Source: Paraspadella gotoi
Lineage: Eukaryota > Animalia > Chaetognatha
DNA length: 31,925 nucleotides
Reading direction: 5' to 3'
Assembly: GCA_051294375.1 (NCBI GenBank)
Contig: CM119268.1
Coordinates: 19,979,611 to 20,011,535, forward strand
Shown: positions 4,941 to 30,200 of the stretch, piece after piece
Layout: each line of letters starts with the position of its first letter
How positions within the stretch are numbered: position 1 is the stretch's first letter
The notes under the pieces: generated by a model
What the model saw: the letters and a program-made list of their open reading frames with translations, nothing else
Told to the model about the DNA's origin: nothing
Database searches by the model: none
Translations under genes and position numbers: made by a program

Positions 4941-5515
4941 AAACTTTATTTTTCTCTCTAGATACTATTTCATTTTATTTTCTTTGAGTGGATGCCAGAG
5001 GCGGAGGGAACCTTCCGTCCGTCCGTCCGTCCGTCCGTCCGTCCCACCTTTGCAAAAAACACCAATTACTCGCAATTGGATGGATGGATTTAATGAAATT
5101 TTGTGTGTGGGTAGGGAAGTGTGTGATTGAGCTGGATATAAAGTTTCGATGGAATCGTCCGAGTGGAATTGAGTTTAAATGGAAAAAACAAAAAAATTAT
5201 AATTCACTATTTGAACACCAATTTCTCATGAGTGGATGGGGCGATTGACCTGGAATTTTGTATGTGAGTAGGAAAGTGTGTGATTGAACAGGAAACCAAG
5301 TTTCGATGGAATCGTTTGAGTGGAAATGAGTTTAAATGGATAAAAACAAAAAACCTCTTTCACTAATTGATTATGATTTTTTTACCTTTTATATTATATT
5401 GTAGTGGTAGTATTTCATACCCCACTACTCGTCCGAGAATCAACAGCACCTATGGCGCCGGAGGTAGCACGAGCTCCTCCCAACCCAAAGGACTCGGGTT
5501 CGCGCCCTGCTGATT

Positions 5516-5597
5516 CGCACAAGTAAAAGCGGGACGGGGCGTCTAACCCACCTGTAGTGTGGACTACAGCCCGATCTGAAGTTCGGGACCTTGTGTG
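5516..5597 (+). ncRNA. Twister ribozyme (P5-type permutation), family A 5' LTR
   Basis: P5 CGCACAAG/CTTGTGTG; GA-CGG; P1 GGCGTC; T^AA (5544/5545); CCC-AC; P3 CTGTAG/CTACAG; P4 CCCGA/TCGGG; L4 T-CTG-AAGT. T1 is CGG:CTG (one G-U) and T2 is AC:GT. Confidence 0.75.
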
Positions 5598-5940
5598 CAA
5601 CGGACGGTAAACTGCTCGCGGCATCGTCTTCCACATTGGTGAGCCACACGAAACACGCTGGCACGTTAATACACCTCTGCCCGGGCATGTTAACACACCT
5701 CTGCCCTCGACCATCGTGTGTGAAGACGGGAGCAGGAATAGGCAGCCCCTCCTAGAGTGCTCGGGCACAACGCGTGCATCATAGCCATCACACTTGCGCG
5801 GGTGTGTGATGCCTAGGGGGGATGTGTAGTGGTAGTATTTCATACCCCACTACTCGTCCGAGAATCAGCAGCACCTATGGCGCCGGAGGTAGCACGAGCT
5901 CCTCCCAACCCAAAGGACTCGGGTTCGCGCCCTGCTGATT

Positions 5941-6023
5941 CACACAAGTAAAAGCGGGACGGGGCGTCTAACCCACCTGTAGTGTCGGACTACAGCCCGA
6001 TCCGAAGTTCGGGACCTTGTGTG
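5941..6023 (+). ncRNA. Twister ribozyme (P5-type), family A 3' LTR
   Basis: P5 CACACAAG/CTTGTGTG; L4 T-CCG-AAGT pairs perfectly with GA-CGG (T1) and with AC (T2). Predicted cleavage T5969^A5970. Confidence 0.8.
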
Positions 6024-6810
6024 CAACGGACGGTAAACTGCTCGCGGCATCGTCTTCCACAATATGTATATGCAGGATGTATTAATGAATCAAATAATTA
6101 ATCAGTTAATTAATCAATTAGTCAACAAATTAATCACTAATTAATTAATCAGTCAATCAATCCGTCCATCCGTCCCACCTTAGCAAAAAGCCCCAATAAC
6201 TCGTGATTGGCTGGTTGGATCGGAATGAAATTTTGTGTATGGGTAGGAACATGTGTGATGAAGCTGGATATAAAGTTTCGACGGAATCGTGTGAGTGGAT
6301 ATGAGTTTAAATGGAAAAAAGATAAGTCGCATTTACTAAAATATTTTTACTTATTTTGACCAATAAATACTTGTGTGTGGGTAGGAAAATGTGTGACGAA
6401 GCTTGATATAAAGTTTCGGTACGAGTGGAAATGAGTTTAAATGAAAAAAATATGAGTCACATTTACTTGAATCTTTTTACTTATTTTAACCCATAATAGA
6501 TTGAGATGAAATTTTGTGAGCGGGAAGAAAAGTTTGTTAAGAAGCTAGATATAAAGTTTTGACGGAATTGTGCCAGTGGAAATGAGTTTAAATGGAAAAA
6601 ATATAAGTCACATTTACTTTAGTTTAAGGATATCGTTGATGAAAATCTGTATATAAATTATAATTAATTATTAAATATTAAAATTAATTAATTAATTGAT
6701 TAATTAATTAATTTCCGACATTGTTTGCTCAAACTTGTTTATATATATATATTATATATATTATATTATATACTATATTATATATTATTTTATATATATT
6801 ATATCTATAT

Positions 6811-6841
6811 TGAGGTAGCGTGTTCTTGATGTTCGTCCACA
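6811..6841 (-). mobile_element. 31-bp fragment of a Gypsy LTR 5' end
   Basis: Reverse complement TGTGGACGAACATCAAGAACACGCTACCTCA resembles the LTR start TGTGGACGAACAACTACAACACGCAACCTCG. Confidence 0.65.
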
Positions 6842-6931
6842 ATATATAATTTTTCAATTGTACAAATTATTCAATTAATAATTGTGGTATTTTCCTTTCG
6901 TTTTCGTTGTTTTTCTTTTTGGTTTTTTTTA

Positions 6932-7078
6932 AATTCGCGACAAAGTAAAAGAGTTATTTTTATTTTAATATAACAACGATACTTTTGATTATTCGACTTA
7001 ATTCTCGAAACGTCCGAATTATCAAAAATATCGTTGTTATTATAAAATAAAAATAACTATTTTACTTTGTCGCAAATT
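6932..7078. repeat. Imperfect ~60-bp-arm inverted repeat (MITE-like hairpin)
   Basis: GCGACAAAGTAAAA...TAACAACGATA pairs with TATCGTTGTTA...TTTTACTTTGTCGC. Confidence 0.8.
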
Positions 7079-7423
7079 AATAATTCTGTAGAAGACGAAA
7101 ATAGTAATAATAAAAGTGAGGAGAAGAGTGACGATGTAAGAGAAGTAGAAAAGAAGTGAGACGAGCTCTCTCCTGATCCACTTTTATCATCGCCCGTACC
7201 AATTTGACCTTACGGTCGCCTCGGCCCTATTATTGTGTCCGGTCAATCTAAGGTCATTGCCAAAGCTAGGGCAAAGTGACCGTGTGGAATAGACCGACTC
7301 GGAGAAAGAGGAGAGAGGAAGGGTTTAGAGAGAGAGACCGGTGGTAAGTCGCCTCAATTCAAAAGAATTCTCAAGGCCTTATAATTCGTAGATTCCTTCC
7401 AATTCTGGTTCTTACCCCTTAAG

Positions 7424-7607
7424 GTTCTAAACTCTCAGGCCTACGCCTTCTATGCTTCTCTCGCCGCCTGCATACCAAATCTTCGCCTGACGACCCGACG
7501 CTTCAACATCGTCTACGCGTCAGTGCTGCGCCTGTCGGCCGATCTGGAGTGTCTCAAGACGGTCGCAGAGTCTGGAGTCCAATGGAAATACGTCATTAAC
7601 TTTGCCG
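7424..7607 (+). CDS. GT14 core-2/I-branching beta-1,6-N-acetylglucosaminyltransferase (GCNT-like), first visible exon
   Basis: AG|VLNSQAYAFYASLAACIPNLRLTTRRFNIVYASVLRLSADLECLKTVAESGVQWKYVINFA-G|GT matches the GT14 motif YA..R..ADL.C...WKY.IN..G. An in-frame alternative acceptor exists at 7439. Upstream exons were not found. Confidence 0.88.
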
Positions 7608-7757
7608 GTGAATTATACCAATATAAGCAACATTCTGTGGCGGTATATTCACACCGCCTCACGTCCACCATCCGTCAGCCAAATCCATTGGCTCAGAGGG
7701 GGAACACACCATCCCAGGCGTAGTGTTCCATCCACAGTTCTAATGACTTCCCTCTGC

Positions 7758-7838
7758 GTTGGCAAAGCGAGACCGTCCTAGGGTAACCGCGCCAGTGACT
7801 GGAGGCGTCACTGAGGGTCGGAAGCCCCCAAAGCCAAC
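7758..7838 (+). ncRNA. Twister ribozyme (P5-type), family B 5' LTR
   Basis: P5 GTTGGC/GCCAAC; AAA-GCGA-GA-CCG; P1 TCCTAGGG; T^AA (7784/7785); CCGC-GC; P3 CAGTGAC/GTCACTG; P4 GGG/CCC; L4 T-CGG-AAGC. T1 is CCG:CGG and T2 is GC:GC. Confidence 0.82.
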
Positions 7839-8243
7839 AGTGAGATGCCCCATCCCAATGGGCATCACAGGCAACCCGGCTGTTGCCATAAGTGGTGAGC
7901 CCTACTATCGAACACGCAACCTTCTCAGGGTACGCTGCGACAAACGCCTATGCCCTGCCGACTTCGGTACGCTACGACAAACGCCTATGCCCCTGGGGTA
8001 CGCTACGACAAACGCCTATGCCCCCACAACTCGCGCTCTCTCTCTCTCCCACTATGGTAACAGTCTTGTCAGACACCTCTCAGGCTTGAGGAACCTGAGT
8101 GATGTCTTGGCCCAGGGATCCTGTGGCGGTATATTCACACCGCCTCACGTCCACCATCCGTCAGCCAAATCCATTGGCTCAGAGGGGGAACACACCATCC
8201 CAGGCGTAGTGTTCCATCCACAGTTCTAATGACTTCCCTGTGC

Positions 8244-8324
8244 GTTGGCAAAGCGAGACCGTCCTAGGGTAACCGCGCCAGTGACTGGAGGCGTCACTGA
8301 GGGTCGGAAGCCCCCAAAGCCAAC
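8244..8324 (+). ncRNA. Twister ribozyme (P5-type), family B 3' LTR
   Basis: Identical to 7758-7838. Predicted cleavage T8270^A8271. Confidence 0.82.
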
Positions 8325-8589
8325 AGTGAGATGCCCCATCCCAATGGGCATCACAGGCAACCCGGCTGTTGCCATAATTCTATCATTCCATCGGGAAACA
8401 ATACTGTCATCTCTATTAGTAATACGACTGCGGTAAATTATTTAACTTATTTCTAATCGTTTATAGTGAGGAAGGAACGGGTGACCAAAATCCCTTTAAT
8501 TCGTTTTCCTTTAACCCGATCACCTCCACGGTCCCCGACAGAAACACTACGTCAATATCAACATCATTATCCCTCTCCCTTCCCGTCAG

Positions 8590-8741
8590 GTTCTGAGTTT
8601 CCCCTGAGGACAAACTCGGAGATGATCCGAATTCTCCGTCGATACGAAGGACGAAACGACGTGGAAGGCTTCGTCGCCGATCACCTCGTCGGAAGGTGGA
8701 ACCAAATCTGGAGGATCGAGGAAGCCACCGGGATGATCAAG
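8590..8741 (+). CDS. GCNT-like exon
   Basis: CAG|(G)SEFPLRTNSEMIRILRRYEGRNDVEGFVADHLVGRWNQIWRIEEATGMIK|GT; GT14 G.(D/E)FP..TN motif; phases match the neighbouring exons. Confidence 0.88.
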
Positions 8742-8928
8742 GTGATGACGATGACTAGATGGTGATTATGATTAATATGATAAAACAATCGTGATCATAA
8801 TGGTTATCATAAAGGTTATGAGTATGATTACGATAATCGGATGGTAAGGATGTGTGATTGTGTATAATAAGGACGATAATTCTGATGAGTAAATAAAAAA
8901 AAAGATTATTTTTGGAGACTATATCTAA

Positions 8929-9528
8929 TAGAGTGATGTGAAAATGATAAAATTTTAGAAAATTAAAATTTAGCATATAAAACATAAACATAAAAACCAT
9001 TAAAAATACTTTGGTAAATTTATTTTTTAATTTTATACATTAATGGGCACCAGTGAGCTATATTTATATATAGTAATAAGTATATAATAGGCTAAAATTT
9101 TAAAATTTTAAGATCGGATTTGGATTCCTTGCAAAAAGTTGATAGAAGAAAGTATAATTCTTTTTTAAAAATTATTTTATTAAGTTAGTCAAAAATGTAA
9201 AAAACTATATTTAAGACACCGATTTTCATTTTCCAGCTTAAAAATATAGTTTTTTGTAATTTTAACCTTCTTAAGGACATAATTGTTGAAAAAGATTTAT
9301 ATTTTCTTTTATCAACTTTTAACGAGGAATCTGAATCTGTTCTCAGAATAAAAAAAAAAACATTTTGAAATTTTGACATTATATAAGGGTAGTACTATAT
9401 ACAAAATAAGCTGACTGGGCTACTACATTTGTTAAAAAAGAAAAAAAACTTCAGATTAGTATTCACTAATATGATAGTTTTCAAGATATAATTGCTAAAT
9501 TTCAATTCCAAACTTTCACTTCACCCTA
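8929..9528. mobile_element. hAT-type MITE, diverged relative of the 610-bp family
   Basis: TIRs TAGAGTGATGTGAAA / TTTCACTTCACCCTA; 8-bp TSD ATATCTAA; internal similarity to 10719-11328. Confidence 0.82.
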
Positions 9529-10067
9529 ATATCTAATGTTAAATTTTAATTTAATTTAATTTACTTTTAATTTAATTTTTAATTTTATCTAATTTTAAAT
9601 TGTAAATATTATTGTAATAATTGTCCTTTCTTTTCGTTGCGTTTGTTAATTTTAGGAAGAATAGTTTTTTATATTACAAACAACGATTTTTATTTCTTTT
9701 CAACATAAATTTCTCTATAACATTGAGTTAGAGAGAGAAAGAAAGAGAGAGAGAGAAAGCTTCCAACACAGTGAGAAAAGGTCAGATTTTGAGGACAGGT
9801 TAAGGTAAGGAGAGGGAATAAGAAAAAAATGGTTGAATTTTGAAAGGAATTTTGAAGGAGATTGAGATAGAGAGAGAGAAAATAATTACATTTGGCAATG
9901 TACAAGAATGATAAAGTAAATAAATAAATAAATAAGCAAACTTAATATTTAAACTAGTATAGTTAACAAAGTTTGTTAATTAAGAATGAAATGTAAAAAG
10001 AAGAATAAGTGGTGAAGGATAGTTAAGTTTTAGAGATAGTGGAAAAAAGGAATCTCCACATCATTGA

Positions 10068-10597
10068 CAGCCCGCGGCCGTCTATTGGGCGGCCTGTGCA
10101 GGCAATGGCAACCAAACCTGCTCAGCAGCATACTTTGGCGAGATCGGGAAATCTCTCTCAGATTGGTTCAAACAGCACATAAAGCCATATTGTGACGCCC
10201 AAGGTCTATTGGCTATTGCCGAGCATTCCGCATCTTCTGGCCATCTGTTTAGAGAGTCCGACTGTCTCGTGCTGTCCCATGACCAAAAATGATTTCCATC
10301 AAAGCCCTCGAGCCCTCTCTGAACCGTGATGGAGGACGATTCGACCTTCCTCCAAGCTATGATTCACTCATCAGAATGGAGGTGGAACGCCCAGCGCCAC
10401 CCCAACCGCACGGTGATTCCACTGTCCCCACTCAATGGGTCAGGCGGAGGCCTCTTAGCAAGCAATGGATGCCCGATGCCTCTCCCAAGCCTACAGCAAC
10501 TTGGTGTGACTCTCCTCGCGCTGAGCATCGTCCAAAACGATGGCTGCAGGAGGAGGGAGAGGAGTCTGTATCCCCTGCACCAAAGCAGGCCAGAACA

Positions 10598-10600
<3 letters not shown>
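10068..10600 (+). mobile_element. Penelope-like element 3' fragment (degenerate GIY-YIG endonuclease)
   Basis: Frame from 10077 reads AVYWAACAGNGNQTCSAAYFGEIGKSLSDWFKQH...AIAEHSASSGHLF...; after a stop/deletion it reads SIKALEPSLNRDGGRFDLPPSYDSLI. This is the typical PLE endonuclease C-terminus. Confidence 0.85.
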
Positions 10601-10634
<34 letters not shown>

Positions 10635-10640
10635 AACTCA

Positions 10641-11830
10641 ATGAAATTGGTACAACCAATATAAAAATTATCCATTCATTAATAAATGACGCCTATCTTG
10701 CTCCCTGACTTTGGACAGTAAGGCGTAGTAAAATTTCTAAATTTAACTTTAATTAAAATTCTAAAAGTGAGGAACGAACAACATTATACTAATGAACATT
10801 TATGTAATAAAAAAATTTAAAATAATTTTACAATTTACGCCAGTAGGCCATATTTATACTAGTACTTAACCAATAAATGTTAAAATTTCAAAACAGTTTT
10901 TTCTAAGATTTTTTTGCAGATTTAGATTCCTCATAAAAAGTTTGATAAAAAGAAATATAACTCTTTTTGAAAAATTCCTTCATTAAGTAGGTCAAAAAAT
11001 AGAAAAAGCTATATTTAAGCTGAAAATTTAATTTTTTATATATAAATATAGTTTTTTTAATTTTTAACCCACTTAATGAAAGAATTTTTAAAAATGATTT
11101 ATATTTTCTTTTATCAAGTTTTGACGAGGAATTCAAATCTGCAATCAAAATTAAGAAAAGCCTATTTTGAAATTTTTCGATTTTATAAGGATAGTACTAT
11201 ATATAAATATAGCCTACTGCGAAAATTAAAAAACAAAAAATAATTTTTTTTTACAAATTAATGTTCACTGATGGTGTTGTTCATAATTGACTTTTAGAAT
11301 TTTCGTATGTAACTTTCACTACGCCTTATTGGACAGGCTTTGGTGGTTTAAGGCCTCCATCACTCTTACAAGATAATGACATAGCAGGTCCCTGCAAGCT
11401 TTCAATCAAGACTCTTCACAGACTCGTTTATTCACTCCAGAGTACCTGGCTTCCCTATCAATGAAGTGGAAAATATTTCAAAGAATGTTTCAATTGTATG
11501 AAAAGACCACTCCCTTAAGTATTAGATCGGGAATACTTATTGTACTCCGCACTAGCATCAAAATACAAGGAGCTGAATTTTATGAAATTGGTACAACCAA
11601 TATAAAAATTATCCATTCATTTAATAAATAAGCTATCTTGCCCTGACTTTGGACAGGCTTTGGTGGTTTAAGGCCTCCATCACTCTTACAAGATAATGAC
11701 ATAGCAGGTCCCTGCAAGCTTTCAATCAAGACTCTCTCACAGACTCGTTTATTCACTCCCAGAGTACCTGGCTTCCCTATCAATGAAGATGGAAAATATT
11801 TCAAAGAATGTTTCAATTGTATGAAAAGAA
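10641..11830. repeat. ~320-bp unit in partial tandem, first unit split by the MITE
   Basis: ATGAAATTGGTACAACCAATATAAAAATTATCC... starts at 10641 and 11582. It also occurs at 22715 and 23032, and as a fragment at 19811. Confidence 0.85.
10719..11328. mobile_element. 610-bp hAT-type MITE
   Basis: TIRs TAAGGCGTAGT / ACTACGCCTTA; 8-bp TSD TTGGACAG at 10711-10718 and 11329-11336. Confidence 0.92.
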
Positions 11831-11859
11831 TGTTATAGAGAAAATTATGTTTATTAAAC

Positions 11860-11905
11860 AAACGCTGATGAAGACTAAAATCAAAGAGTCGAAACAGGTC
11901 CCTAT
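11860..11905 (+). ncRNA. Degenerate minimal type I hammerhead ribozyme (Penelope-type)
   Basis: CTGATGA-A-GACT(loop)AGTC-GAAAC-AG-GTC. Stem II is intact, stem III ACAGGT is near-palindromic, and stem I pairs poorly. Confidence 0.5.
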
Positions 11906-12068
11906 GATATGTAAATAAAAATCGTTTTTTGAAATATAAAAAACTGTTCTTCCTAAAACTGTAAATTTTAGATGATGACGAGAAACAATGAAAATAATGA
12001 CAATTAGTATTGAAGATATAGGTTACGTTATGTCAACAGCCGGGTTGTCTGTGATTGGGCATCTCACA

Positions 12069-12149
12069 GTTGGCTTTGGGGGCTTCTGACCCTCCGTAAC
12101 GCGTCCTGTCACTGGCGCGGTTACCCTAGGACGGTCTCGCTTTGCCAAC
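12069..12149 (-). ncRNA. Twister ribozyme in the solo LTR (T1 disrupted)
   Basis: GTTGGC AAA GCGA GA CCG TCCTAGGG TAA CCGC GC...GGG T-CAG-AAGC CCCC AAA GCCAAC. The L4 change CGG>CAG mismatches the middle T1 pair. Confidence 0.7.
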
Positions 12150-12184
12150 GCAGAGGGAAATCGTTTGGACTGTGGAGTGTGGAT

Positions 12185-12794
12185 TAAGGCGTAGTAAAAT
12201 TCCTAAATTTAACTTTAATTAAAATTCTAAAAGTAAGGAACGAACAACATTATACTAATGAACAATTATATAATAAAAGAATTTATAATAAATTTTACAA
12301 TATACGCAGTAGGCCATATTTATACTAGTACTAAACCAATAAATGTTAAAATTTTAAAACAGTTTTTTCTAAGATTTTTTTGCAGATTTGGATTCGTCAT
12401 AAAAAGTTTTTAAAAAGATATTTAACTCTTTTTGAAAAATTCCTTCATTAATTAAGTGGGTCAAAAATTAGAAAAAGCTATATTTTAAGCTGGAAATTAA
12501 CTTTTTATATATTAAATATAGTTTTTTTTAATTTTTAACCCACTTAATATAATAATTTTTAAAAATGATTTATATTTTCTTTTATCAACTTTTGACGAGG
12601 AATTCAAATCTGTAATCAAAATTAAAAAAAGCCTATTTTAAAATTTTTCGATTTTATAAGGATAGTATAAGTATAGCCTACTGCGAAAATTAAAAAAACA
12701 TAAAATAATTTTTTTTACAAATTAATGCTCACTGATGGTATGTTGTTCATAATTAACTTTTAGAATTTTCGTATGTAACTTTCACTACGCCTTA
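12185..12794. mobile_element. 610-bp hAT-type MITE, second copy
   Basis: Same TIRs as 10719-11328; 8-bp TSD GTGTGGAT at 12177-12184 and 12795-12802. Confidence 0.92.
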
Positions 12795-12882
12795 GTGTGG
12801 ATGGAACGCAACGCTTGGGATTGGATGAACGATGGTGGATGTGAGGCGGTGTAATATACCGCCATAACGTTTCATTTCTCAG

Positions 12883-13031
12883 AAAACGAGTTCTCCTCAC
12901 TCCCCTCCGCCACTCAACCTCAAAATCGTCAAGGGCAGCGCCTACTTTGCGTTGACCCGAAACTTCGTCGATTTCATCCTTAATTCTGACGAATCCAAAC
13001 TTTTTTTCGATTGGGTCAAATACGTTTACAG
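12883..13031 (+). CDS. GCNT-like exon
   Basis: CAG|KTSSPHSPPPLNLKIVKGSAYFALTRNFVDFILNSDESKLFFDWVKYVY(S)|GT; GT14 PPP...GSAY..LTR.FV motif. Confidence 0.92.
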
Positions 13032-13081
13032 GTGAAAACGCTTTTTTGTTATACGCTCAACGTTTGCTCTATTTGAATATA

Positions 13082-13129
<48 letters not shown>

Positions 13130-13134
13130 ATCAG

Positions 13135-13202
13135 CCCCGACGAGATATTTTGGGCGACTCTCCAATACAATCCTCACCTTCGAGCTCCGGGCGGCAGCGC
13201 GG
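13135..13202 (+). CDS. GCNT-like exon (catalytic SPDE motif)
   Basis: CAG|(S)PDEIFWATLQYNPHLRAPGGSA|GT. Confidence 0.92.
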
Positions 13203-13749
13203 GTAATTTCGATCGATGTGGGCGAAGGAACTCAACGTATTTCCCTTCGCCTCGCTTTCACGATTTTTTTCTTAAACGGGTTTTCGGTTAATATCTTTTT
13301 CCCACACTTATTGTCGTTATTCCTCACTCGCATTTTCCAGCGACGGTAAAAGTTAACTGGTTAAAAATTAGATGTTTCTTAGAGATCACAAATATAAAAA
13401 AGTTTTAAGATTTAGAGCTTAAAAAGTTTTTAAATTATTTTATAACTGTTTAATAAAGTTTTTTTTTTTTTTTAATTTTCGACCAATCTATTTTCCAAAT
13501 TTGTTAAAGTTTTAATAATAATAAAAATATAAATTATATATTATTTAATATTAAAATTCTTCAGTGTATCAAGCCCAGACAATAAAACTTGTGGTAAATT
13601 CTAGCCCTCTTTGTTCTAATACATAAGTCTGACGCTTCGCTCCCTCCACCCTGTATCCTCTTATCCCGACGTCGTTTTTTACTAACTCCCACCTTTCTCC
13701 CGCCTTCACCTTTACCCTTCTTCCACCCCGCCAACCTCAAACCCCACAG

Positions 13750-13897
13750 ATGGTCCCGGCCCCAAGGACAAATCGAGTTGGCGAATGAAATTTACCAACT
13801 GGCTGACCAAAGCTGAACCTCCTTGCAGAGGAGTCGTGCGACACGCCGTTTGCGTATACGGACTTCAAGATCTCACTTACCTTCAAGGGCTGCAATG
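13750..13897 (+). CDS. GCNT-like exon
   Basis: CAG|(D)GPGPKDKSSWRMKFTNWLTKAEPPCRGVVRHAVCVYGLQDLTYLQGLQ(W)|GTGAGT; C.G..R..C.YG..DL motif. Confidence 0.92.
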
Positions 13898-13978
13898 GTG
13901 AGTTTGGGGGATTGAATTAAAGTTACCGACCTGAATTATCCTATCTCGCTCTTTCTCCTCTTCTTTTTTCCTTGCCAG

Positions 13979-14114
13979 GTTTGCGGCGAACAAGTTCGAC
14001 ATCAACGTGAACCGCATGGCGTTGGAATGTCTGGAGGAGCTGCACCGCAACCGCTCGTTCGCACCGCAGCCCATCGACCTCTCCGCTTATCCATTGGCGT
14101 TGGCGCGGCCCTAA
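13979..14114 (+). CDS. GCNT-like terminal exon
   Basis: CAG|(W)FAANKFDINVNRMALECLEELHRNRSFAPQPIDLSAYPLALARP*; ANKFD...CLEE motif, TAA stop. Confidence 0.92.
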
Positions 14115-14712
14115 ACGAATCTACGAAGTCTTCTATTTGTCCTTACTTTCGTTTCCTCTCTCTTTCTCTCTCATTCCCACCTCTCTCTCCCTCCCTCTTC
14201 CTTCCTTTCCTTCCATTTCTCTCCCTCTCCCCCTCAAATAGAAACTGCGCCACTTTCCAGTCTGTTTGATTTGTTATTATTTCCTTTTTTCTTTCTTTCT
14301 TTTTCTATTTTCTATCTTTGTCTTTCTTTCTTTGTCTTTCTTTGTATCTGTCTTTCTTACTTTCTTTTTTTTATGAATGAAAGCAATTAGTAACTACCAT
14401 GATGGAAAAAAAATTGTCGCGGTTACTTTCCATATTTTTATTAATTGGGGATGAGCATCGTTTCTAAACAACTCATTGTTTTATATCACCATCTCATATT
14501 GGCTATGCCGCATATACAGATAGCCGTGACATAATATGCACATTTAGTGTCATTACTTAATGCATAATTTCATCATAATCCGACAATCCGTTATCGAATA
14601 AAAGCAATCGCAAAAATCGCTCTTTCAACCGATCAACTTTCCTTTAAAATCGAGCTCGTTTTGATCCAACAAAGATTAGTACTATGCGTAGTACTAAGCT
14701 TTAGAACCGGCG

Positions 14713-15024
14713 CACAGTGAGATCCTGGGCCTGAATTTTTCAGAAAAATCCCTTTCAGTTAAAAATAAATTTTTATTATATACGAATTATAAAATAATTT
14801 TTAAAAAATATATTTGAATATTAAAATAATTAAAATATATTTTTTTATAATTTTAAATAAATAAAATAAATTATTTTATAATAAAATATATATTATTATC
14901 AGATTATATAATAATAATAAATAATAATTATAATAATAATAAAAATAATAATTATAATTAAAAAATAAAATTAAAAAATAAAATATTTTTATTTTATTTA
15001 TTATTATTATTTTATTATTATTTA

Positions 15025-15069
<45 letters not shown>

Positions 15070-15399
15070 TAAAATTAAAAAAATTAAAATTTTTAAAATT
15101 TATTATATTTAATATAATTTATATTTTTATTAAAATTAAAATTTATTTTAATCTATATTTTTTAATTATACCATGATAAAAAAACTCGCAGTTTAAAAAA
15201 ATTAGTTAATTTATTTATAAAATATATTTTTTTATACATATATATATATAATATATAGTACTACCTTTCTCAGATTAATAAAAAAAATTATTTTTAAAAC
15301 TATAATTTTATTTATATAAATATTTTTAATATTTATATAATAATATAAAAAAATTTAAAATTTATTTTTCTAGCATTTGGACTCACAAGCAACACTGTG
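14713..15399. mobile_element. Transib-like non-autonomous element
   Basis: Termini CACAGTG...CACTGTG; 5-bp GC-rich flanks CGGCG / CGACG; extremely AT-rich interior. Confidence 0.7.
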
Positions 15400-16694
15400 C
15401 GACGATTTTTGTTTTTAATAAGTTTTTATTGGACTTTTTTAAAATTTTGCATTATATTGAGAAAACGCTTTGAATTAAGCCCGCGCTCTACCTGATTTGA
15501 ATAGTAAAATCAATACAGTTTCTGTCAATTGTGTTCAAAATTGAAAAAAAATGAAGGCTTGACTATGCAGTTTTCACCTAAAAAACCAGTTCATTTGATT
15601 GCTTTATCAAGCAATTAAGATTGCAAGAATTTTAATTTGCTTTTTTTCATCATGTAGAGAAGACATAAGGTTTCGGAAACTGTACTAATATGTATGATTT
15701 GTAATTAGTTAAATCGTTACTTATTTAAAAATCCCTGCCTTTTCTCAGTCTCATGTCGAATGGTTATTGCAGTATCTCCATTAAAATAGATTCAGGGATG
15801 AATCTTAATTCATATATCAAAAAAGAGCGATATTAAAAATATATTGATGCTGTAGATGCTCCAGAATATTTTTTTTATATTATAAAGTATTGATAAAAGT
15901 TATAAGGTTCTGGGTAACCTTTCAGTAAACAAAGTTATCATTTTTATTTACCTCTGGATGTAATATCAGAAGTATCAAACGAGTCCAAAAAAAATAAAGA
16001 TTTTGTTGAAAGGAAAGATAATGCATCATCACATTATGCAGCAACTCAAGCCTAGTTTACTTTATAGGGGATCAAAGATCATTTTTTGCTCAAAATCTGA
16101 TAAAAAATATTATGTCAGAGATATAATATTAATTAATTTTATTTGAGTAAACAAATAAAGATATTTAGACGTGAGATAGTATGATTAAAAGTACAAAAAA
16201 TATTTTGTTTATATTGTTTGGGTAACAGTATCATTAATTAAAATATATTTATAATATTATCTTTATAAAATTAAAAATTTTCAAAATAATTTTTTTACAA
16301 ATTTGTATTAAAGATTCTGATTCTTCATAAAAAGTAAAATCAAAAATATAAAATATGTTATTAGAGAGAGCAAAGAATTTTGAATTTGTTATTAAAAATT
16401 TTAATGTCTTCAGCGTTAAAAATGTATTATATGATAAAACATTTTGGTCATTTTTTATAGTTTTAATCTAAAAATATTATTTAACATATTTTATAAAAGT
16501 TCTTTAGTTTTTTTCAGCGAATCCGAAACTGTTCTTAAAATAAAAAAACAATTTATTTAAAAAAATTTTGATTTTATAAGGATATTACTAAAAAAAAATT
16601 TAATTAATGATATTGTTATACAATTTTTTTTTTTAAAAATGGTGAAGAGACAGTAATTATTATTATGTGTTAGTGATAGAACCGTTCAATATAA

Positions 16695-16768
16695 GCAGTC
16701 CCTGAGCTTCGGATCAGGCTGTAATACCGAGTTATAGGCGGGATAAGCGCCCCCTCCCTCTTAACTGC
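16695..16768 (-). ncRNA. Twister-like ribozyme, family C 3' LTR (degenerate)
   Basis: GCAGT TAA GAGG GA GGG GGCGCT TAT CCC GC CTATAA..TTACAG CCTGA T-CCG-AAGC TCAGG G ACTGC. T2 is intact; T1 has one mismatch. Confidence 0.62.
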
Positions 16769-17121
16769 CAGGCGACCACCAGGCTAAAACCCAAGACCTT
16801 TGGGTTGGGAGGCGAATTATTTGCCTCCGGCACCAATGGCCGCTGATGAACGGTTTGGTGAAAATTTTTAGTCCACCATACCATCCCCTTTCCTGTAGGG
16901 AGAAGTCTGTTGCGTCTCTTCAGTGAATTGTTGTTTGTTGGTGGAAAGTCATCACCAAGTTGAGGCATGTCGCCTGATGTGTTGTGGGCGGAAAGTGCAT
17001 CGCCAGGTTGAGGTATGTCGCCTGAAAGTGTTATTGTTGCTGTTGTGTTCAGAAGTCGGGCTCTACCTATGAAGAGACATAATATTATTATTATGTGTTA
17101 ATGTGGAACCGTTCATATAAC

Positions 17122-17195
17122 GCAGTCCCTGAACTTCGGATCAGGCTGTAACACCGAGTTACAGGCGGGGTAAGCGCCCGTCCCTCTTTAACTGC
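17122..17195 (-). ncRNA. Twister-like ribozyme, family C 5' LTR
   Basis: GCAGT TAAA GAGG GA CGG GCGCT TAC CCC GC CTGTAA..TTACAG CCTGA T-CCG-AAGT TCAGG G ACTGC. T1 is CGG:CCG and T2 is GC:GT. Confidence 0.7.
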
Positions 17196-18499
17196 CGGCG
17201 ACCACCGGGCTAAGACCCCGGACCTTTGGGTTGGGAGGCGAATTAGTTGCCTCCGGCACTAATGGCCGCTGATCGACGGTTGGTGGATTTTAGTCCACCA
17301 TAATGGCTTAATTATTTTTTATTACATATACAAAGGCAGAATAAAAACATTGTTCCATCGCTCAATCTTTTCATCACTCCACCCTAATGAGTAGTCCTTT
17401 TGATCAAAAAGAGGTGAAAACAGTTAGAGACAACCACTTTTGGAAGTAATTATATGCAATAAATAATTTTATGCTGTTGAGAAATGATATTTTTATTTAA
17501 TCTTAAGGAGGTCATATTACCTATTTAATAGCAAAAAAATATAATTGATAACGAAATTAAACTTTTCCAAACCGCGACAATTTTTTTTTCCATCATGGTA
17601 TTAAATTGTTCTTTTGTTTTCATCTTTCCTTATTCTTCAATATCATCTTTTGATTCTTTTATTTTTTTCCTTTTCTCAATTTTTTACTTTATTTTTTTTC
17701 TCGACAAAGATATTTTCGCTCATTTTTAACAGTGATCGTTGTTTCTGTTTTAAACGTTTGTTTTGTTTTTTTTCATTAAAGTTTTGACATGAATTTTATT
17801 TTATTTTTTTTGCGGATCAATTTTGCCTTCAGACTGACGAATAGTGATTACTGATTAGTATTTTTTTTTTAGTTTTCGTCGTCGTCGTCGTCGTTGATTC
17901 GTACTCAGCGGTCTGGTCTCGGCGGAAGAGTGGTCTGTGCAAGACGAGGATGACAATCGAGCAAACACGACTCGCTTTTCAGCGCTCGACCGCTCGACCG
18001 CACCCGGCAATTTCGTGGCCACAGTATTCTTTTTTTTTGGCGGGCCGTTTGCTCTCAATTTTAAATCTCATTTTTTGTTTCATTCACATTAATTAATTGA
18101 TGCTAAATTTAGTATAATTTTTATTTTTCATCGATCATTTTTTATCGTAATCTTTATGGAAATACGCGTCTGTCAGCTATATGCCTCCCATTTTCCAATG
18201 AAAGCAGAATTTCATTAACAACTAAGCCTTTTACCTAAAGTATCATAGTAGAAGTCGAGTGGCATAAAAATCGTGCGTTCCATCCCGTTGTATATTAGCT
18301 TTAATAAATTGAATTTTTAGCCTCCTTTAAATTTACTGTGCCCTCTAGCTTTCGACTGTCTTTGGTGTCCGATTCCACTGTGTGATCGCACGAGGAGGAA
18401 AATTGAAACTGAATTTGCTTCCCGGCTGGCTCCCCCCCTCACAGTTTTCCTCTCCCACGGCTCCTACTCGCATGACCCCTTCCCGGTTGCCACCCACCC

Positions 18500-20557: not shown

Positions 20558-20649
20558 ATTAGAGAATTGACAAAGTTTTTGTTTGCAACGAATTTTATTT
20601 AATTATAAATAAAATTCGTTGCAAACAAAAACTTTGTCAATTCTCTAAT
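20558..20649. repeat. Perfect inverted repeat, 44-bp arms with a 4-nt loop
   Basis: 20558-20601 is the exact reverse complement of 20606-20649. Confidence 0.95.
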
Positions 20650-24975: not shown

Positions 24976-25014
<39 letters not shown>

Positions 25015-25023
25015 AATTAACTC

Positions 25024-25292: not shown

Positions 25293-25992
25293 AAAAGTAG
25301 GCTCGATCCCTATTGCTTTTAAGATTTTTTTTTATCATTTTCTTAATTTATGATCTTCCCAGATCTGTGCAAAAATTTTAATAATATTTAAAGTATTAAT
25401 TGTAATTTCGCTATAGAGAGGCAGTGCAAGAACAAAAACACTTATTTTTTTCAGAATGACGTGAAGGAAAATACTTTAATACTAATCACATTAATTATTG
25501 TGAGTATGTACAAATAAATATTACTGTTGAGATAAGACAGTGCAGATTTTAATTTATTTGCTAATATTTTGATATATATTGAGAAATCCTTTGTCCTTTA
25601 ATCTCATTTGCATGAAAATTTTCAAATTACTTGTTTCACTATCTTTTATTTTTTATTTTTATATTTTATGAAAGATTTACCATTTAATCTATTGTGGACG
25701 AACAACTACAACACGCAACCTCGGTCAAAACTGAACTTACCAACCTTACCCTCGACCGTTTTCCCTCATTTCTCTTTATGGTCAAACTTTGACCTTGTAA
25801 ATATCTATTGTTATAGACTTAGCATCTGAGCCTTTTATTGTTATCGTTTTTAACCTTGTTGAAGAATAAATCATTCTTACTCTGAAACTTGTGTCGTCCA
25901 CACGTGGTGAGCCCCGTGAAAAACAAAACAAATAAAACAAACCAAAAAAATAATAAAAAATCTCTCAACTCATTTTTTTTTTTCCCTCTTTG

Positions 25993-27206
25993 ATGTCCCG
26001 TCGACCAAGCACCTTCCGTCCTCCATCGCCAGCCGACGAAGAAGAAGAGACAATGCCAGTAACGACTCGCAACGCCTCTCATTCCGACGGCGCCGGCCAC
26101 GACGAGGCGTTCCACGACGCCGCTGCATCCTCATCTACCCCAAATCTCGAAAACAAAATCGAAAAACTTTTTGAAATGATTTACGAGTTGAATTCAAAAT
26201 TTCCTCCATCACTGAGAGACCAACTCCTTCATCAGCAGACGCCAGCACCGCCTCAACGGAACTGCCTTCCCCACAGGAAGATAATGGCGCCGGTGACGCC
26301 GCCCCCGCAGGGGACGCCGCCCGCCCTCGTCCTTCCTCCGACGCCCCTGCTAGAGACGAAACCCAAAACTGACGACCTTTGACCCCGACCACATCGAGGA
26401 GTGGTTGGACCACACTGCTGTGGAATTTGGCGCCACCGGCGTCACCAACCCGGCGGAGAAGAAGGCGCAAATCCTCAGCGCCATCCCTATCGCCCGCCAC
26501 CGGCTGATTCCACACGCTCTGCGCATCGACGAAGGTCTCGACGCCCACAACAATCTTGTCGCCCACTTAAAAAACATTTATGGTGAAGATGCCAACCGGC
26601 GCGCCGCAAAGGCGTTGAAGATGACGTCGCTGAAAGGCGTCACCCCCTCTCAACACCTTTCTGCGATTGACGCCGTCCTTGAAGGCCTCACCATCGACCA
26701 CATCAAGGCCGCCATCTTGGCCGCTGCCCTCCTCAGAGCGTGAGGGAACACGCCGTCAGGAAGGACAAGAAGCCCGCCGACATCGCCAAAGATGCCGACG
26801 AGTTCTTCCTCCCTTCCGGCCAACTTCGATGCTCCGATCGCGCCTCAACTCCGTGAACGCCGTCACCTCCATTGAAGTCACAGTGGACGAGCCACTGGAG
26901 ACTCCAAACGAATCGACTGATTCCGACGACGCCGCCTTCTCTTATGCGAACGCAGTCCGCCGACCGCCGCCGCGCTCAACGCAACGCCCTTTTTCGCAGC
27001 AGCGTCAACTGCAGCAACGCACGCAGCAGCAACGCCGCCCAATCTTGACGCCTCGTTCCCCTCCACATCGCGAACCGCCTATAGGCGAAGCTAAGTGCTT
27101 TTACCATTACAATTTCGGCCCCAACGCCTTCAAATGCCACGGGACTAATCGCGACGGCCGCCCGTGCCCAATGGCGCCGTCAAACGCCAACGCCAGCGGC
27201 CGCTAG
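25993..27206 (+). pseudogene. gag: gag (frameshifted as assembled)
   Basis: Split over three ORFs. Contains TFDPDHIEEWLDHTAVEFGATGVTNPAEK and C-terminal CFYHYNFGPNAFKCHGTNRDGRPC; TAG at 27204-27206. Confidence 0.85.
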
Positions 27207-30200
27207 TCGCCCACGTCGCTGGCCAAAACGACTCTAAACTCTTTCTAGTGCGCGACCCGACGCCGGCCTGGAGTGGCCGACCGCGCCGCCGCCTAAAGCG
27301 AATCCTGCCGCCGTCGAGGCGGCGCTCCCGCCGCAAACGCTCCGCCACTCCGCGCCGCCAACGACACGCCCATCGAAACCTTTGGCATTCGAGAAATGGG
27401 GATTAGACTGGGAAAACGCGTTTTCCCTTATCTCGTCATTATCGCCGACGTCGCCACGCCCATTCTCGGCGCCGACTTTTTGATGGAGCATCATCTCGGC
27501 GTTGATCATCAACGCCGTATCCTCCTCGACCTCGACGACTACATGGTCATTTCTGGCCATGCCCACGACGCCGCCTCAGCCGCGGCGCCGCCCCGCGTTT
27601 TACAGTCCGCGATGCCTACTCCGCGCTTCTTGATGAGCGACCGGAACTTACAAAGCTCGTCTTCAACTCGGCGCCGCCCAAGCACGGCGTCGAACACCAT
27701 ATCCCAACGAAAGGTCCGCCCGTCTTCGCCCGCGCCGCCGTCTCGCCCCCGATCAGCTTGCCGCCGCCAAAGCCGAGTTTGAAAAAATGTTGGAACTCGG
27801 CATAATCCGACGATCCACTTCCGCTTGGGCGTCGCCGCTTCACGTTACACGGAAACCCGATGGCTCTCTCCGTCCATGCGGCGACTACCGGCGCCTCAAT
27901 GGCGTCACCGTCGACGACCGCTACCCAATTCGCCACCTCATGGACTTTAACGCCGACGTCGCCGGGAAGACGGTCTTCTCGAAGATTGACCTTTGCAAAG
28001 GTTACCACCAGATTCCCGTTGCAAAAGAAGATCGTCACAAAACGGCAATTATCACACCGTTTGGTTATACGAATTTCTCTTCATGCCATTTGGTTGAAAA
28101 ATGCCGGTCAGGACTTCCAACGTATGATGGATCAAGTCCTGAGCGGCATCCCCCATGTTTTCGTTTACTTGGACGATCTCCTCGTAGCGTCTCACTCACA
28201 CGAGGAACACCAAGAAGACCTCAAACGCGTCTTCAACGCCCTCGCCAACAACGGCCTCATTGTCAATCGCGCCAAGTGCGTTTTCGGCGCATCCAGCCTC
28301 GAGTTTCTCGGCTACAACGTCGACAAAGATGGCGTTCGACCACTTCCGGCAAAAGTGGAGGCGCTACGTGCGATGGCAACGCCCACTTCCGTCAAGGAAC
28401 TTCAACGCTTCCTCGGCGTCTTTAATTATTATCGTCGTTTTGTTCCCCACGCCGCACACCATCTCGATCCACTTCTCGAAGTCCTCCGTGGGAAACCGCG
28501 CGCGCTTAAGTGGGCGTCGCCGCAAGACGCCGCTTTCCAGGCAATCAAAGATGCACTTGCAGACTCCACGATGCTGGTACACCCCATCGACGGCGCCCCT
28601 CTCGCTCTCACAGTCGACGCCTCCGACGTTGCTGTCGGCGCTGTCCTCGAACAGCTCGTCAACGGCTAATGGCAACCTCTTGGTTTCCATTCCAAGCCGC
28701 TGAAGCCAAACCAGCGCAAATGGCCTCCCTTCGACAAGGAGCTCCTCGCCGCCCACGCCTCGATCCGCCACTTCCGTCCATATCTTGAAGGGCGCCGTTT
28801 TACTCTTTTCAGCGACCATATCTCGCTCGTACCGGCGCTGAGGAAGAAGGCGGAGCCTCACACAATGAGGCAGACATATCAACTGGCGGGCATCGCCGAA
28901 TATACCGGCGATATTCGCCACATCGCCGGGAAAGCCAACGTCGTCGCCGATGCACTCTCTCGCCCGCCAATGAAAACCCCGTCCCCGCCGCCAGCGTCGC
29001 CAATCAACGCGAACCAAACCGCGCCAGCCTCGAACGTTCAAAAAGCGCGTGACGACATCGCCGCCACCGTCAATGCCGTCGGCGCCCTTCAAATCAATTT
29101 TGAGGCAATGGCGGCAGATCAGGCCACCGACGACGACGTACAGAGGCTCCTCAATGACCCTCACACAGCACTCCGTCTAAAAAACGTTCCAATAAGGAAC
29201 ACAACGCTCGTGTGCGACATTTCCGGTTCGCGGGCACGCCCACTCGTCCCTATGTCATGGCGCCGACGCGTTTTTGATGCCACCCATGGCATTGCTCACC
29301 CAGGGGTTCGCGCATCAAAGAAACTGATTACAACGCGTTTCGTTTGGCCATCCGTCTCATCCGACGTTGCGAGGTGGGCGTCATCATGTGACACATGCCA
29401 GCGCGCCAAGACCAACGTCATGTCCGCGCGCCTCTCCAGCATTTTGAACCACCTTCAAAACGATTCGCCCATGTCCACATCGACCTCGTCGGACCACTAC
29501 CCGCTGTTTCTGGCCACACACATCTCTTGACCATGATCGACCGCTTTACGCGCTGGCCGGAAGCGGCGCCGCTCCGCGACACCTCCGCCGCCTCAGTTGC
29601 CGCCGCTTTTTTACAGAACTGGGTCTCCCGTTTCGGCGTCCCTTCCGTCGTCACCACTGATCGTGGCGCCCAATTCACGTCGGAATTGTGGCGCCAAGTG
29701 GCGGCAGTCGTTGGCTTCGATCCCTCTACAACAACCGCCTACCACCCCCAATCCAACGGGATGGTAGAGCGTCTCCATCGAACGCTGAAGGCGGCCCTTC
29801 GCGCTCGCTGTGACGCCGCGGGAGAAAACTGGCTGGCGCAACTTCCCTGGACTCTTTTGAGCCTCCGCGCAACTCCACGTGAGGATTCCGACGCCTCACC
29901 CGCCGAATTGACGCTGGGCGAGTCACTCACGCTCCCCAGTGAGCTACTTCCGGTTCCAGCAACCGACGTCGACGCCGCCGCTCGCGCACAAATCCTCGAC
30001 AGTCTCCGAGCTGATGTTGCCTCATGCAGCCCCTGCCCGCCGCTTGGCACGCGGCGCCGCCCTCTCACGTCCCGGAAACTCTCGCTGACGCCGACCGTGT
30101 CTACGTCAGACGTGACGGCCACTCGACGCCGCTCCAGCCTCCCTACGACGGCCCTTACGTCGTGCGTGAACGAGGACCGAAAACCTTCAAAGTCTGAAAT

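What the first reader, a model, noticed from the sequence alone, without database searches (positions are those of the whole stretch)
5400..17302. Candidate new system: non-autonomous LTR 'twister retrozymes', three families, every LTR carrying a twister ribozyme
Seen: three non-coding two-LTR elements with PBS, PPT and 4-bp TSD, plus a solo LTR. All seven LTRs share AAA/TAA-GNGR-GA-NNN-[P1]-TA(A/C/T)-CC(G)C-RC-[P3]-[P4: T-NNN-AAGY], closed by a P5 stem, always on the element's sense strand. The pseudoknots covary between families: T1 is CCG:CGG in B versus CGG:CCG in A and C; T2 is GC:GC in B versus AC:GT in A. P3, P4 and P5 differ in sequence but still pair. Established: this is the twister core (UAA...GC...U-NNN-AAGC...GA-NNN) in the P5 permutation, and LTR retrozymes described in plants use hammerheads. 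Inference: these are retrozyme analogues that use twister in an animal-like genome. I know of no description of this, but that needs a literature check.
Basis: partly seen in the sequence, partly recalled or inferred. Interest (0 to 1): 0.96.

Follow-up and report, generated by a model that had tools for sequence, protein, structure and literature searches.

The report
Twister-ribozyme LTR mini-retrotransposons in an animal
Three tiny, gene-less jumping elements in this animal-type genome carry a twister-type RNA fold in each end repeat, behind a tRNA-like stretch that likely acts as a promoter, so their RNA likely cuts itself to unit length and may close into a circle, a strategy I found described for end-repeat elements only in plants and with a different ribozyme; cutting and circles are untested.

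Summary
Observation confirmed, with corrections. Three non-coding two-LTR elements (A, B, C) and a split solo LTR have 4-bp TSDs, a PBS shared with a Ty3/gypsy element in the same window, and a PPT. All 7 LTRs parse as P5-type twisters on the sense strand, with compensatory changes in both pseudoknots (0 hits in 30 window shuffles). Rfam scores none of them at threshold. It does hit an eighth motif in a non-LTR tandem repeat (D), which a model built from A and C also finds. Only 4 of 7 LTR cores are intact. Public runs show B is a very high-copy family present in an RNA run; the two listed variable sites inside its ribozyme lie in a loop. Best reading: retrozyme-like TRIMs using twister, mobilised by gypsy. 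Not found in 10 literature searches. Cleavage, circles and Pol III use are untested.

The parts
5400..6061 (+). Element A: LTRs 5400-5635 and 5825-6061, 189-nt internal part, PBS 5637-5645, PPT 5815-5822, TSD ATAT
5453..5507 (+). A 5' LTR box A (5453-5464) and box B (5497-5507); twin at 5878-5932
   Evidence: on the 3' LTR only 2 of 400 shuffles score as well
5518..5595 (+). Twister in A 5' LTR, predicted cut 5544/5545, one U.G wobble in T1
5943..6021 (+). Twister in A 3' LTR, predicted cut 5969/5970, core intact
7636..8376 (+). Element B: LTRs 7636-7890 and 8122-8376, PBS 7893-7901, short PPT, TSD ATTC; sits sense in an intron (7608-8589) of a Branch/GCNT-like gene
7689..7699 (+). B box A (twin 8175-8185); box B degenerate
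   Evidence: 33 of 400 shuffles score as well, so weak
7758..7838 (+). Twister in B 5' LTR, predicted cut 7784/7785, core intact
8244..8324 (+). Twister in B 3' LTR, predicted cut 8270/8271, core intact
12029..12866 (-). Solo B-type LTR with TSD ACGT, split by an inverted-repeat element at about 12185-12794; decayed twister 12069-12149 (T1 mismatch, P3 mismatches)
16643..17302 (-). Element C: LTRs 17302-17070 and 16880-16643, degenerate PBS, PPT, TSD CCAT; older copy
17197..17269 (-). tRNA-like cloverleaf in C 5' LTR (twin 16771-16843), called tRNA-Gly only at a relaxed ARAGORN score
   Evidence: 2 and 4 of 300 shuffles hit at that setting
17122..17195 (-). Twister in C 5' LTR, cut would be 17172/17171; second adenine lost
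16695..16768 (-). Twister in C 3' LTR, cut would be 16745/16744; second adenine lost, T1 and P3 mismatches
11634..11695 (-). Eighth twister (D) in a ~320-nt non-LTR partial-tandem repeat; the only Rfam Twister-P5 match (25.8 bits, gathering 37.6)
25693..30746 (+). Ty3/gypsy-type element (RT, RNase H, integrase in several broken frames), ~210-nt LTRs without twister or tRNA boxes, TSD CTAT; candidate helper family

Best explanation
These are non-coding miniature LTR retrotransposons whose LTRs hold a P5-type twister fold behind a tRNA-like head; the RNA is likely made by Pol III from the 5' LTR, likely cut by the twister once in each LTR, and would then be closed into a 425-486-nt circle that a Ty3/gypsy helper likely reverse-transcribes and integrates. 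Shown: LTR anatomy, TSDs, PBS and PPT shared with the gypsy element, twister core with compensatory pairs, very many insertions of B, and B sequence in an RNA run. Inferred: Pol III start about 70 nt upstream of the ribozyme; co-transcriptional cleavage (A at LTR position 145, B at 149); loss of the terminal R repeat after two cuts, which forces circularisation before tRNA-primed reverse transcription (the argument made for plant retrozymes, PMC4918200); ligation by an RtcB-type host ligase (shown in vitro for animal hammerhead retrozymes, PMC7229834). P1 cannot form a hairpin but is self-complementary, so the two LTR ribozymes may fold as a strand-swapped pair. That would favour cutting of the two-LTR precursor over the single-ribozyme circle.
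For: Core and covariation: T1 CCG:CGG (A, C), CGG:CCG (B), CCA:TGG (D); T2 AC:GT (A, D), GC:GC (B, C 3'), GC:GT (C 5'). P3, P4 and P5 differ between families yet pair. A covariance model from A and C only ranks D first among other families (20.8 bits, E 2e-5), a damaged D second, and B weakly (E 0.55); Rfam Twister-P5 hits D. P1 and P2 imperfections and pseudoknot wobbles are tolerated in natural twisters, and about 94% of tested candidates cleaved (PMC11662667). B copy number: summed depth 0.35-1.28 million over B against 229-267 on unique flank in DNA run X4, and 56,000-542,000 against 11-23 in X5. Loose ends pile up at 7636, 7890, 8122, 8376 and 8378 in 29-67 contigs each. Of 40 listed variable places (10 more hidden), the only two within 7745-7891 are 7800 and 7804, both in the 7-nt P3 loop, against 8 in 7636-7744; the 3' LTR repeats this. 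Run X9 holds a contig spliced across the intron and no depth on unique intron 8410-8529, so it is RNA, and it covers all of B. The first 9 PBS letters are identical in A, B and the gypsy element; A's PPT-LTR junction matches the gypsy's over 11 letters; all have 4-bp TSDs. P1 self-duplex -6.3 to -11.0 kcal/mol with no hairpin; 4.4% of background 6-mers are fully self-complementary. The swapped-pair fold is 10-13 kcal/mol below two monomer twister folds.
Against: No Rfam match at threshold for any LTR motif. A, C and D have a 3-nt 5' strand in P2, and one review warns that changing P2 length may disrupt the active site (PMC5408937). A and C close L4 with A-U where G-C is described as essentially invariant. 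The free minimum-energy fold beats the twister secondary structure by 5 kcal/mol in A and 9 in B, pseudoknots not counted; the swapped pair is not below two free folds. 3 of 7 cores are damaged. Contigs cannot show ends, strand, circles or level. Two long X9 contigs carry B LTR pieces inside other transcripts. A second repeat in the same stretch is also in X9, and the B-to-other-repeat depth ratio in X9 resembles DNA run X5, so specific expression is not shown. The host gene is spliced across a sense-strand B, so cleavage there is not dominant, or splicing is faster. Pol III boxes are significant only in A by box score; B is weak. Lack of T4 runs in A and B is not significant (74-77% of shuffles also have none). 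P1 is dispensable in twister, so dimers are not required.
Confidence: 0.6

Rival explanations
1. The twister is active but serves as an end-maker, not a circle-maker. Pol III reads through for lack of a terminator, and transcripts cut at only one LTR keep a terminal repeat and replicate by ordinary strand transfer, like Cassandra or Helenus.
For: The published Helenus LTRs I read mostly end their tRNA head in a T-run close to the LTR end; here a twister stands in that place, and A and B have no T4 on the sense strand. Competing folds could make cleavage partial.
Against: Both LTRs carry the same ribozyme with all its strands inside the LTR, so double cutting is expected whenever cleavage is efficient. 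Double-cut RNA has no R repeat. T4 absence is not significant.
Confidence: 0.22
2. The twister is a passenger or fossil: a piece of a Penelope-type tail or SINE was captured into an ancestral LTR and plays no part in mobilisation.
For: A related twister with the same P2 and P1 peculiarities sits in the non-LTR repeat D. 3 of 7 LTR cores are damaged. Rfam scores are low.
Against: Compensatory changes in P3 and P4 between homologous A and C while the LTR ends diverged to about a third identity. B has swapped T1 and different stems yet the same core, position and polarity. Listed B variants avoid paired and core positions. Intact cores are in the young copies, damaged ones in the old.
Confidence: 0.13
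3. The repeats are not LTR elements but Penelope-type pseudo-LTR tandems (non-LTR retrozymes) that resemble LTRs by chance.
For: Animal retrozymes described so far are non-LTR tandems tied to Penelope-like elements. D in this window looks like one.
Against: Exact 4-bp TSDs at four insertions including a solo LTR; fixed ends in dozens of contigs; PBS and PPT shared with a gypsy element; a distinct internal part.
Confidence: 0.03

Closest known systems
Plant LTR retrozymes (Cervera et al. 2016, PMC4918200; review PMC7761336)
   Same: Non-coding, two LTRs each holding a self-cleaving ribozyme, PBS, PPT, 4-bp TSD, solo LTRs, probable Ty3/gypsy helper, GC-rich structured unit between the cuts.
   Different: Twister (P5 type) instead of type III hammerhead; animal-type host; smaller (660-741 bp, units 425-486 nt against about 600-1000); PBS resembles tRNA-Trp rather than tRNA-Met; tRNA-like head in the LTR; circles not yet shown.
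Helenus / TRIMp3 (Kojima 2024, PMC10886601)
   Same: TRIM under 1 kb, tRNA-like box A and box B in each LTR, 4-bp TSD in animals, gypsy-type PBS including a tRNA-Trp type.
   Different: No ribozyme is reported in Helenus ('twister' 0 occurrences in the main text). In the supplement parts I read by eye (3 of 11) and six motif searches I saw no twister in an LTR. There the head is mostly followed by a T-run and the LTR end; here by an 80-nt twister.
Type-P5 twister ribozyme (Rfam RF02684; class of Roth et al. 2014, not read)
   Same: Strand order, U^A site, GA general-base motif, 8-nt L4, T1 and T2 pseudoknots.
   Different: P1 is a loopless 5-8-nt self-complementary linker; P2 has a 3-nt 5' strand in A, C and D; long P3; below Rfam threshold.
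Twister T-variants at the 5' end of Perere-3 RTE elements in Schistosoma mansoni (PMC8501958)
   Same: Twister used by an animal retrotransposon; long P3 stem of similar make.
   Different: Non-LTR, P1-type, one ribozyme per element making a 5' end; here two per element inside LTRs.
Metazoan non-LTR retrozymes with dimeric type I hammerheads (PMC7229834; bioRxiv 10.64898/2026.07.22.740005)
   Same: Animal ribozyme repeats giving small circles; a weak terminal helix capped by a palindrome, with better cleavage as dimers.
   Different: Hammerhead, tandem repeats, no LTR, PBS or PPT. Element D fits this layout but with twister.

Membership tests
Twister ribozyme, type P5 | U^A cleavage dinucleotide, second A, and GA general-base motif | tested here: met
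   Intact in A (2), B (2), solo B and D; second A lost in both C copies
Twister ribozyme, type P5 | T1 (3 bp) and T2 (2 bp) pseudoknots with covariation | tested here: met
   Three T1 types and two T2 types plus a wobble across families; T1 mismatch in C 3' LTR and solo LTR
Twister ribozyme, type P5 | P2 of 4 bp and P4 closing an 8-nt L4 | tested here: inconclusive
   P4/L4 met in 8 of 8. P2 has 3 pairs only: a bulge in A, C and D, a C.A first pair in B. Tolerated per PMC11662667, questioned in PMC5408937
Twister ribozyme, type P5 | P1 hairpin | tested here: not met
   No hairpin forms; linker is self-complementary. P1 is reported dispensable
Twister ribozyme, type P5 | Rfam RF02684 gathering score | tested here: not met
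   LTR motifs not hit; D 25.8 bits against 37.6
Twister ribozyme, type P5 | Site-specific self-cleavage | not testable with these tools
   Needs in vitro assay
TRIM (non-autonomous LTR retrotransposon) | Under 1 kb, two LTRs, PBS, PPT, TSD, no protein | tested here: met
   660-741 bp; the longest stop-free frame of each element has no Pfam match
TRIM (non-autonomous LTR retrotransposon) | Dispersed multicopy family with fixed ends | tested here: met
Helenus (TRIMp3) | tRNA-derived box A and box B in the LTR | tested here: inconclusive
   Met in A (2 of 400 shuffles) and by cloverleaf in C (2 and 4 of 300); weak in B (33 of 400; no ARAGORN call)
Helenus (TRIMp3) | 4-bp TSD and gypsy-type PBS in animals | tested here: met
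Helenus (TRIMp3) | Pol III transcription | not testable with these tools
   Also unvalidated for Helenus itself
LTR retrozyme | Type III hammerhead in each LTR | tested here: not met
   No hammerhead family match in the window; the motif is twister
LTR retrozyme | One ribozyme per LTR, PBS, PPT, 4-bp TSD, non-coding | tested here: met
LTR retrozyme | Abundant unit-length circular and linear RNA | tested here: inconclusive
   B is present in an RNA run, but only contigs were available

The most novel reading that the evidence does not exclude
An animal lineage has evolved LTR retrozymes independently of plants by joining a tRNA-derived Pol III promoter to a twister taken from a Penelope-type tail. 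The two LTR ribozymes work as a strand-swapped 'double twister' that cuts only the two-LTR precursor and leaves a stable 425-486-nt circular RNA, copied into very many genomic sites by a gypsy helper.
Probability: 0.33. Interest if true: 0.86.

Novelty: new variant of a known kind. Interest (0 to 1): 0.72.

Why it matters
Papers up to 2026 split retrozymes into plant LTR forms and animal non-LTR forms, all with hammerheads, and place twister only in non-LTR elements. These elements break both rules. If they cleave and circularise, the retrozyme strategy arose at least twice with interchangeable ribozymes, twister gains a concrete biological job, and the circle-template model becomes testable in an animal with a candidate helper at hand. 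A natural dimeric twister would parallel the double hammerhead. The motifs fall below Rfam threshold, so TRIM libraries may hide more.

Tried and rejected
No assembly is held for this window, so no genome-wide copy collection or R-scape. Pattern scans for the A/C and B motifs found 0 in viral contigs and 0 in metagenome contigs. A test of 3-nt against 4-nt P2 strands in viral contigs gave 0 for both, control included, so it is uninformative. No run listed for 5350-8450 is on record as RNA; X9 was judged RNA from its spliced contig. Only B was laid on runs, 4 of 12 listed; A, C and D were not. X10 (organism B) has one 276-nt contig over 7700-7967 with 4 differences at depth 6; it may be a relative or carry-over and is not used as evidence. 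Depth figures are not copy numbers or expression levels. T4 depletion is not significant. Circle folding z-scores are modest: -2.5 (A), -1.5 (B), -3.1 (C), 60 shuffles each. ARAGORN finds no tRNA at default score. MAFFT misregistered C's 5' LTR and P5; the model used 3 of the 4 A/C motifs with an imperfect P5. One search misparsed B's P5 by one base; one search corrects it and only its B values are used. A homolog search with one host exon found nothing; Pfam Branch matches are below cutoff, 2 of 3 exons. The host taxon was not determined beyond 'animal-type'. The gypsy LTRs have no twister parse. Rfam miRNA hits are inverted or simple repeats below threshold. No Pfam match in 5 frames of D, so its Penelope link is untested.


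Full report
1. Observation. Self-comparison of the window and inspection of ends confirm three two-LTR elements and one solo LTR. A is 5400-6061(+), with LTRs differing at 4 of 237 columns and TSD ATAT. B is 7636-8376(+), 1 difference in 256 columns, TSD ATTC. C is 17302-16643(-), 29 differences in 241 columns, TSD CCAT. The solo B-type LTR is 12866-12029(-), TSD ACGT, split by a ~610-bp inverted-repeat element whose twin lies at 10719-11328. The longest stop-free frame of each element has no Pfam match. The PBS starts 1-2 nt after the 5' LTR. Its first 9 letters are identical in A, B and a Ty3/gypsy-type element at 25693-30746 (RT, RNase H and integrase domains in broken frames; named relatives from a nematode, cestodes and fish); C's PBS is degenerate. 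B matches the honeybee tRNA-Trp PBS printed in Kojima's Fig. S2 at 11 of 13 letters (my count), so the primer is probably tRNA-Trp (inference). A's PPT-LTR junction equals the gypsy's over 11 letters, and the gypsy also has a 4-bp TSD.

2. The ribozyme. A descriptor for P5-type twister parses all 7 LTRs, always on the element's sense strand, and one more site, D, at 11634-11695(-). It gave 0 hits in 30 block shuffles of the window and 0 of 1000 shuffles of each of four repeats. It was tuned on these motifs, so this overstates significance; a stricter version gave 4 sites against a shuffle mean of 0.1. Stronger evidence is covariation. T1 has three forms, T2 two forms plus a wobble, and P3, P4 and P5 pair with different sequences. 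A and C are homologous, and P3 and P4 show double-sided changes between them. Rfam does not score the LTR motifs (solo LTR 14.4 bits with twister-P1). It hits D with Twister-P5 at 25.8 bits, below the 37.6 gathering score. A covariance model from A and C alone ranks D first among other families (E 2e-5), a damaged D copy next (E 0.004) and B weakly (E 0.55), of 26 matches to E 10. Departures from the canon: P2 has three pairs, with a bulge in A, C and D and a C.A first pair in B; L4 is closed by A-U in A and C; P1 has no hairpin. A large test of natural twisters found P1 and P2 imperfections and pseudoknot wobbles tolerated, but changes at the second adenine and pseudoknot mismatches harmful (PMC11662667). 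A review cautions about P2 length (PMC5408937). By these rules 4 of 7 LTR cores (both A, both B) and D look competent; both C copies and the solo LTR are damaged. Competing folds are 5 kcal/mol (A) and 9 kcal/mol (B) below the twister secondary structure, pseudoknots not counted.

3. Evidence from public runs (B only). Ten of 12 listed runs hold part of 5350-8450. On 7090-8860, summed depth over B exceeds unique flank by three to four orders of magnitude in DNA runs X4 and X5, and 29-67 contigs per site run off into unrelated flanks at the LTR ends. B is therefore a dispersed, very high-copy family; depth is not a copy number. Of 40 listed variable places (10 hidden), 8 lie in 7636-7744 and 2 in 7745-7891, both in the 7-nt P3 loop; the 3' LTR shows the same pattern. 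This fits selection on the fold, with the hidden rows as a caveat. X9 has a contig joining 7438-7606 to 8589-8741, a splice across the intron that holds B, and no depth on unique intron, so it is RNA. It covers all of B. That shows B sequence in RNA, not independent transcription: two long contigs carry B pieces inside other transcripts, and another repeat is present too. The host gene is a Branch/GCNT-like glycosyltransferase (2 of 3 exons, below cutoff).

4. Missed feature one: a tRNA-like head. All three families have a box A-like motif at LTR position 42-54. A has box B 44 nt further on (2 of 400 shuffles as good). Both C LTRs give a tRNA-Gly cloverleaf at relaxed score (2 and 4 of 300 shuffles), though their box score is not significant. 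B is weak (33 of 400). This part is conserved between A and C (44-45 of 72) like the twister (47-54 of 80), unlike the LTR ends (16-17 of 45; 16 of 51). TRIMs with tRNA-like LTRs, 4-bp TSDs and gypsy-type PBS are Helenus (PMC10886601). That paper does not mention twister. In supplement parts 1, 6 and 8 of 11, read by eye, the head mostly runs into a T-tract near the LTR end, and six L4 motif searches over the file gave 9 hits, 8 in internal parts and one upstream of a head, none with twister context that I could see. Unread parts could hold exceptions.

5. Missed feature two: a loopless palindromic P1. The linker between T1 and the cut is 5-8 nt and forms no hairpin, but pairs with a second copy at -6.3 to -11.0 kcal/mol in A, B, C and D; 42 of 959 background 6-mers and 18 of 951 8-mers are fully self-complementary. 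A strand-swapped pair is a nested structure that the two LTRs of one transcript could form. It lies 10-13 kcal/mol below two monomer twister folds but not below two free folds. Axolotl hammerheads with a palindromic cap cleave better as dimers (PMC7229834). Since P1 is dispensable in twister, dimer dependence is a hypothesis. I reached it before seeing that earlier AI notes describe palindromic-P1 twisters in Naiad-type Penelope tails of other genomes; those notes are unchecked and are not counted as support.

6. Mechanism. Likely: Pol III starts at the head in the 5' LTR; the twister cuts in each LTR, giving units of 425 (A), 486 (B) or 427 nt (C). A doubly cut RNA lacks the R repeat needed for strand transfer, so a circle is the plausible template, as argued for plant retrozymes (PMC4918200 Discussion). 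RtcB circularised animal retrozyme RNA in vitro. A gypsy helper would prime at the PBS and integrate. Anatomy, fold, copy number of B and presence in RNA are shown; promoter use, cleavage, circles, dimer and helper are inferred. My odds: real twister fold about 0.93, cleavage by intact copies about 0.75, whole cycle about 0.6. The main rival is cleavage as an end-maker without circles (0.22), then passenger (0.13).

7. Comparison and novelty. It works like a plant LTR retrozyme but is not a member by the hammerhead criterion. It fits Helenus in A and C, less surely in B. It is a twister by core and pseudoknots, though not by P1 or Rfam score. Ten full-text searches returned no report of twister in LTRs, of ribozymes in TRIMp3, or of a natural dimeric twister. 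A 2026 preprint still divides retrozymes into plant LTR and animal non-LTR hammerhead forms and has no 'twister'. The library lacks most subscription journals and Repbase. What I saw of each paper: PMC10886601, main text parts 1-4 of 6, passages, and the supplement as above; PMC11662667, abstract, sections 32 and 35, passages; PMC8501958, abstract, introduction, section 17; PMC4918200, Discussion and passages; passages only for PMC7761336, PMC6765202, PMC13725137, PMC7229834, PMC5408937, PMC5680766, PMC9695139, PMC12542633, PMC8557442, 10.1101/2022.07.19.500677 and 10.64898/2026.07.22.740005; Roth et al. 2014 not read. Supplements of the preprints and of the twister surveys were not seen and could list such motifs without noting the LTR context. 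Helix names follow; part of the box A/B consensus is recalled.

8. Verdict. A real feature and a new variant of a known kind: retrozyme-like TRIMs in an animal-type genome that use twister, probably with a Pol III head and possibly as a double ribozyme. Interest 0.72; the boldest reading has probability about 0.33 and would merit 0.86.

Noticed in passing
window 10641-11829(-), 22714-23105(-), 19805-19867(-): Element D: ~320-nt non-LTR unit in partial tandem, three insertions sharing one 3' end with variable 5' ends, each full unit holding a P5 twister with palindromic P1. One twister is split by an inverted-repeat element, one has lost its cut site. It looks like a Penelope-type pseudo-LTR or a non-LTR retrozyme with twister, and may be the source of the LTR module. 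Naiad elements are reported to lack canonical hammerheads (PMC8557442).
   Followed up: partly
window 10719-11328 and 12185-12794: Two 92%-identical ~610-bp inverted-repeat elements with TAA/TTA-type ends (PIF/Harbinger-like by inference), each inserted into a twister-bearing repeat; older relatives at 9100-9400 and 21391-21500.
   Followed up: partly
window 25693-30746, 3898-4940, 31661-31895: Ty3/gypsy-type element with LTRs differing at about 5 places but broken reading frames; a diverged, rearranged fragment with LTR at 3898-4940 containing a 54-nt inverted duplication (4088-4215); a 235-nt exact copy of 26970-27204 at the window end.
   Followed up: partly
window 7438-14115: Exons of a Branch/GCNT-like glycosyltransferase gene. 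B lies sense in one intron and is spliced out; D and the solo LTR lie antisense further on.
   Followed up: partly
window 7100-7356: Another high-copy repeat with sharp ends, present in DNA runs and in X9, not identified.
   Followed up: no
window 5030-5353, 6161-6619, 534-723: A family of ~130-150-bp degenerate tandem units on both sides of element A and near the window start; A seems to have inserted into it.
   Followed up: no
window 25000-25292: 22-bp minisatellite, about 13 units.
   Followed up: no
window 5636-5824, 7891-8121, 16881-17069: Internal parts of A, B and C are not homologous beyond the PBS, but each holds short internal direct repeats; A and C internals are both 189 nt.
   Followed up: no
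window 6927-7083, 20537-20670, 23544-23683: Long AT-rich inverted repeats; the one at 20537-20670 gives sub-threshold Rfam miRNA hits.
   Followed up: no
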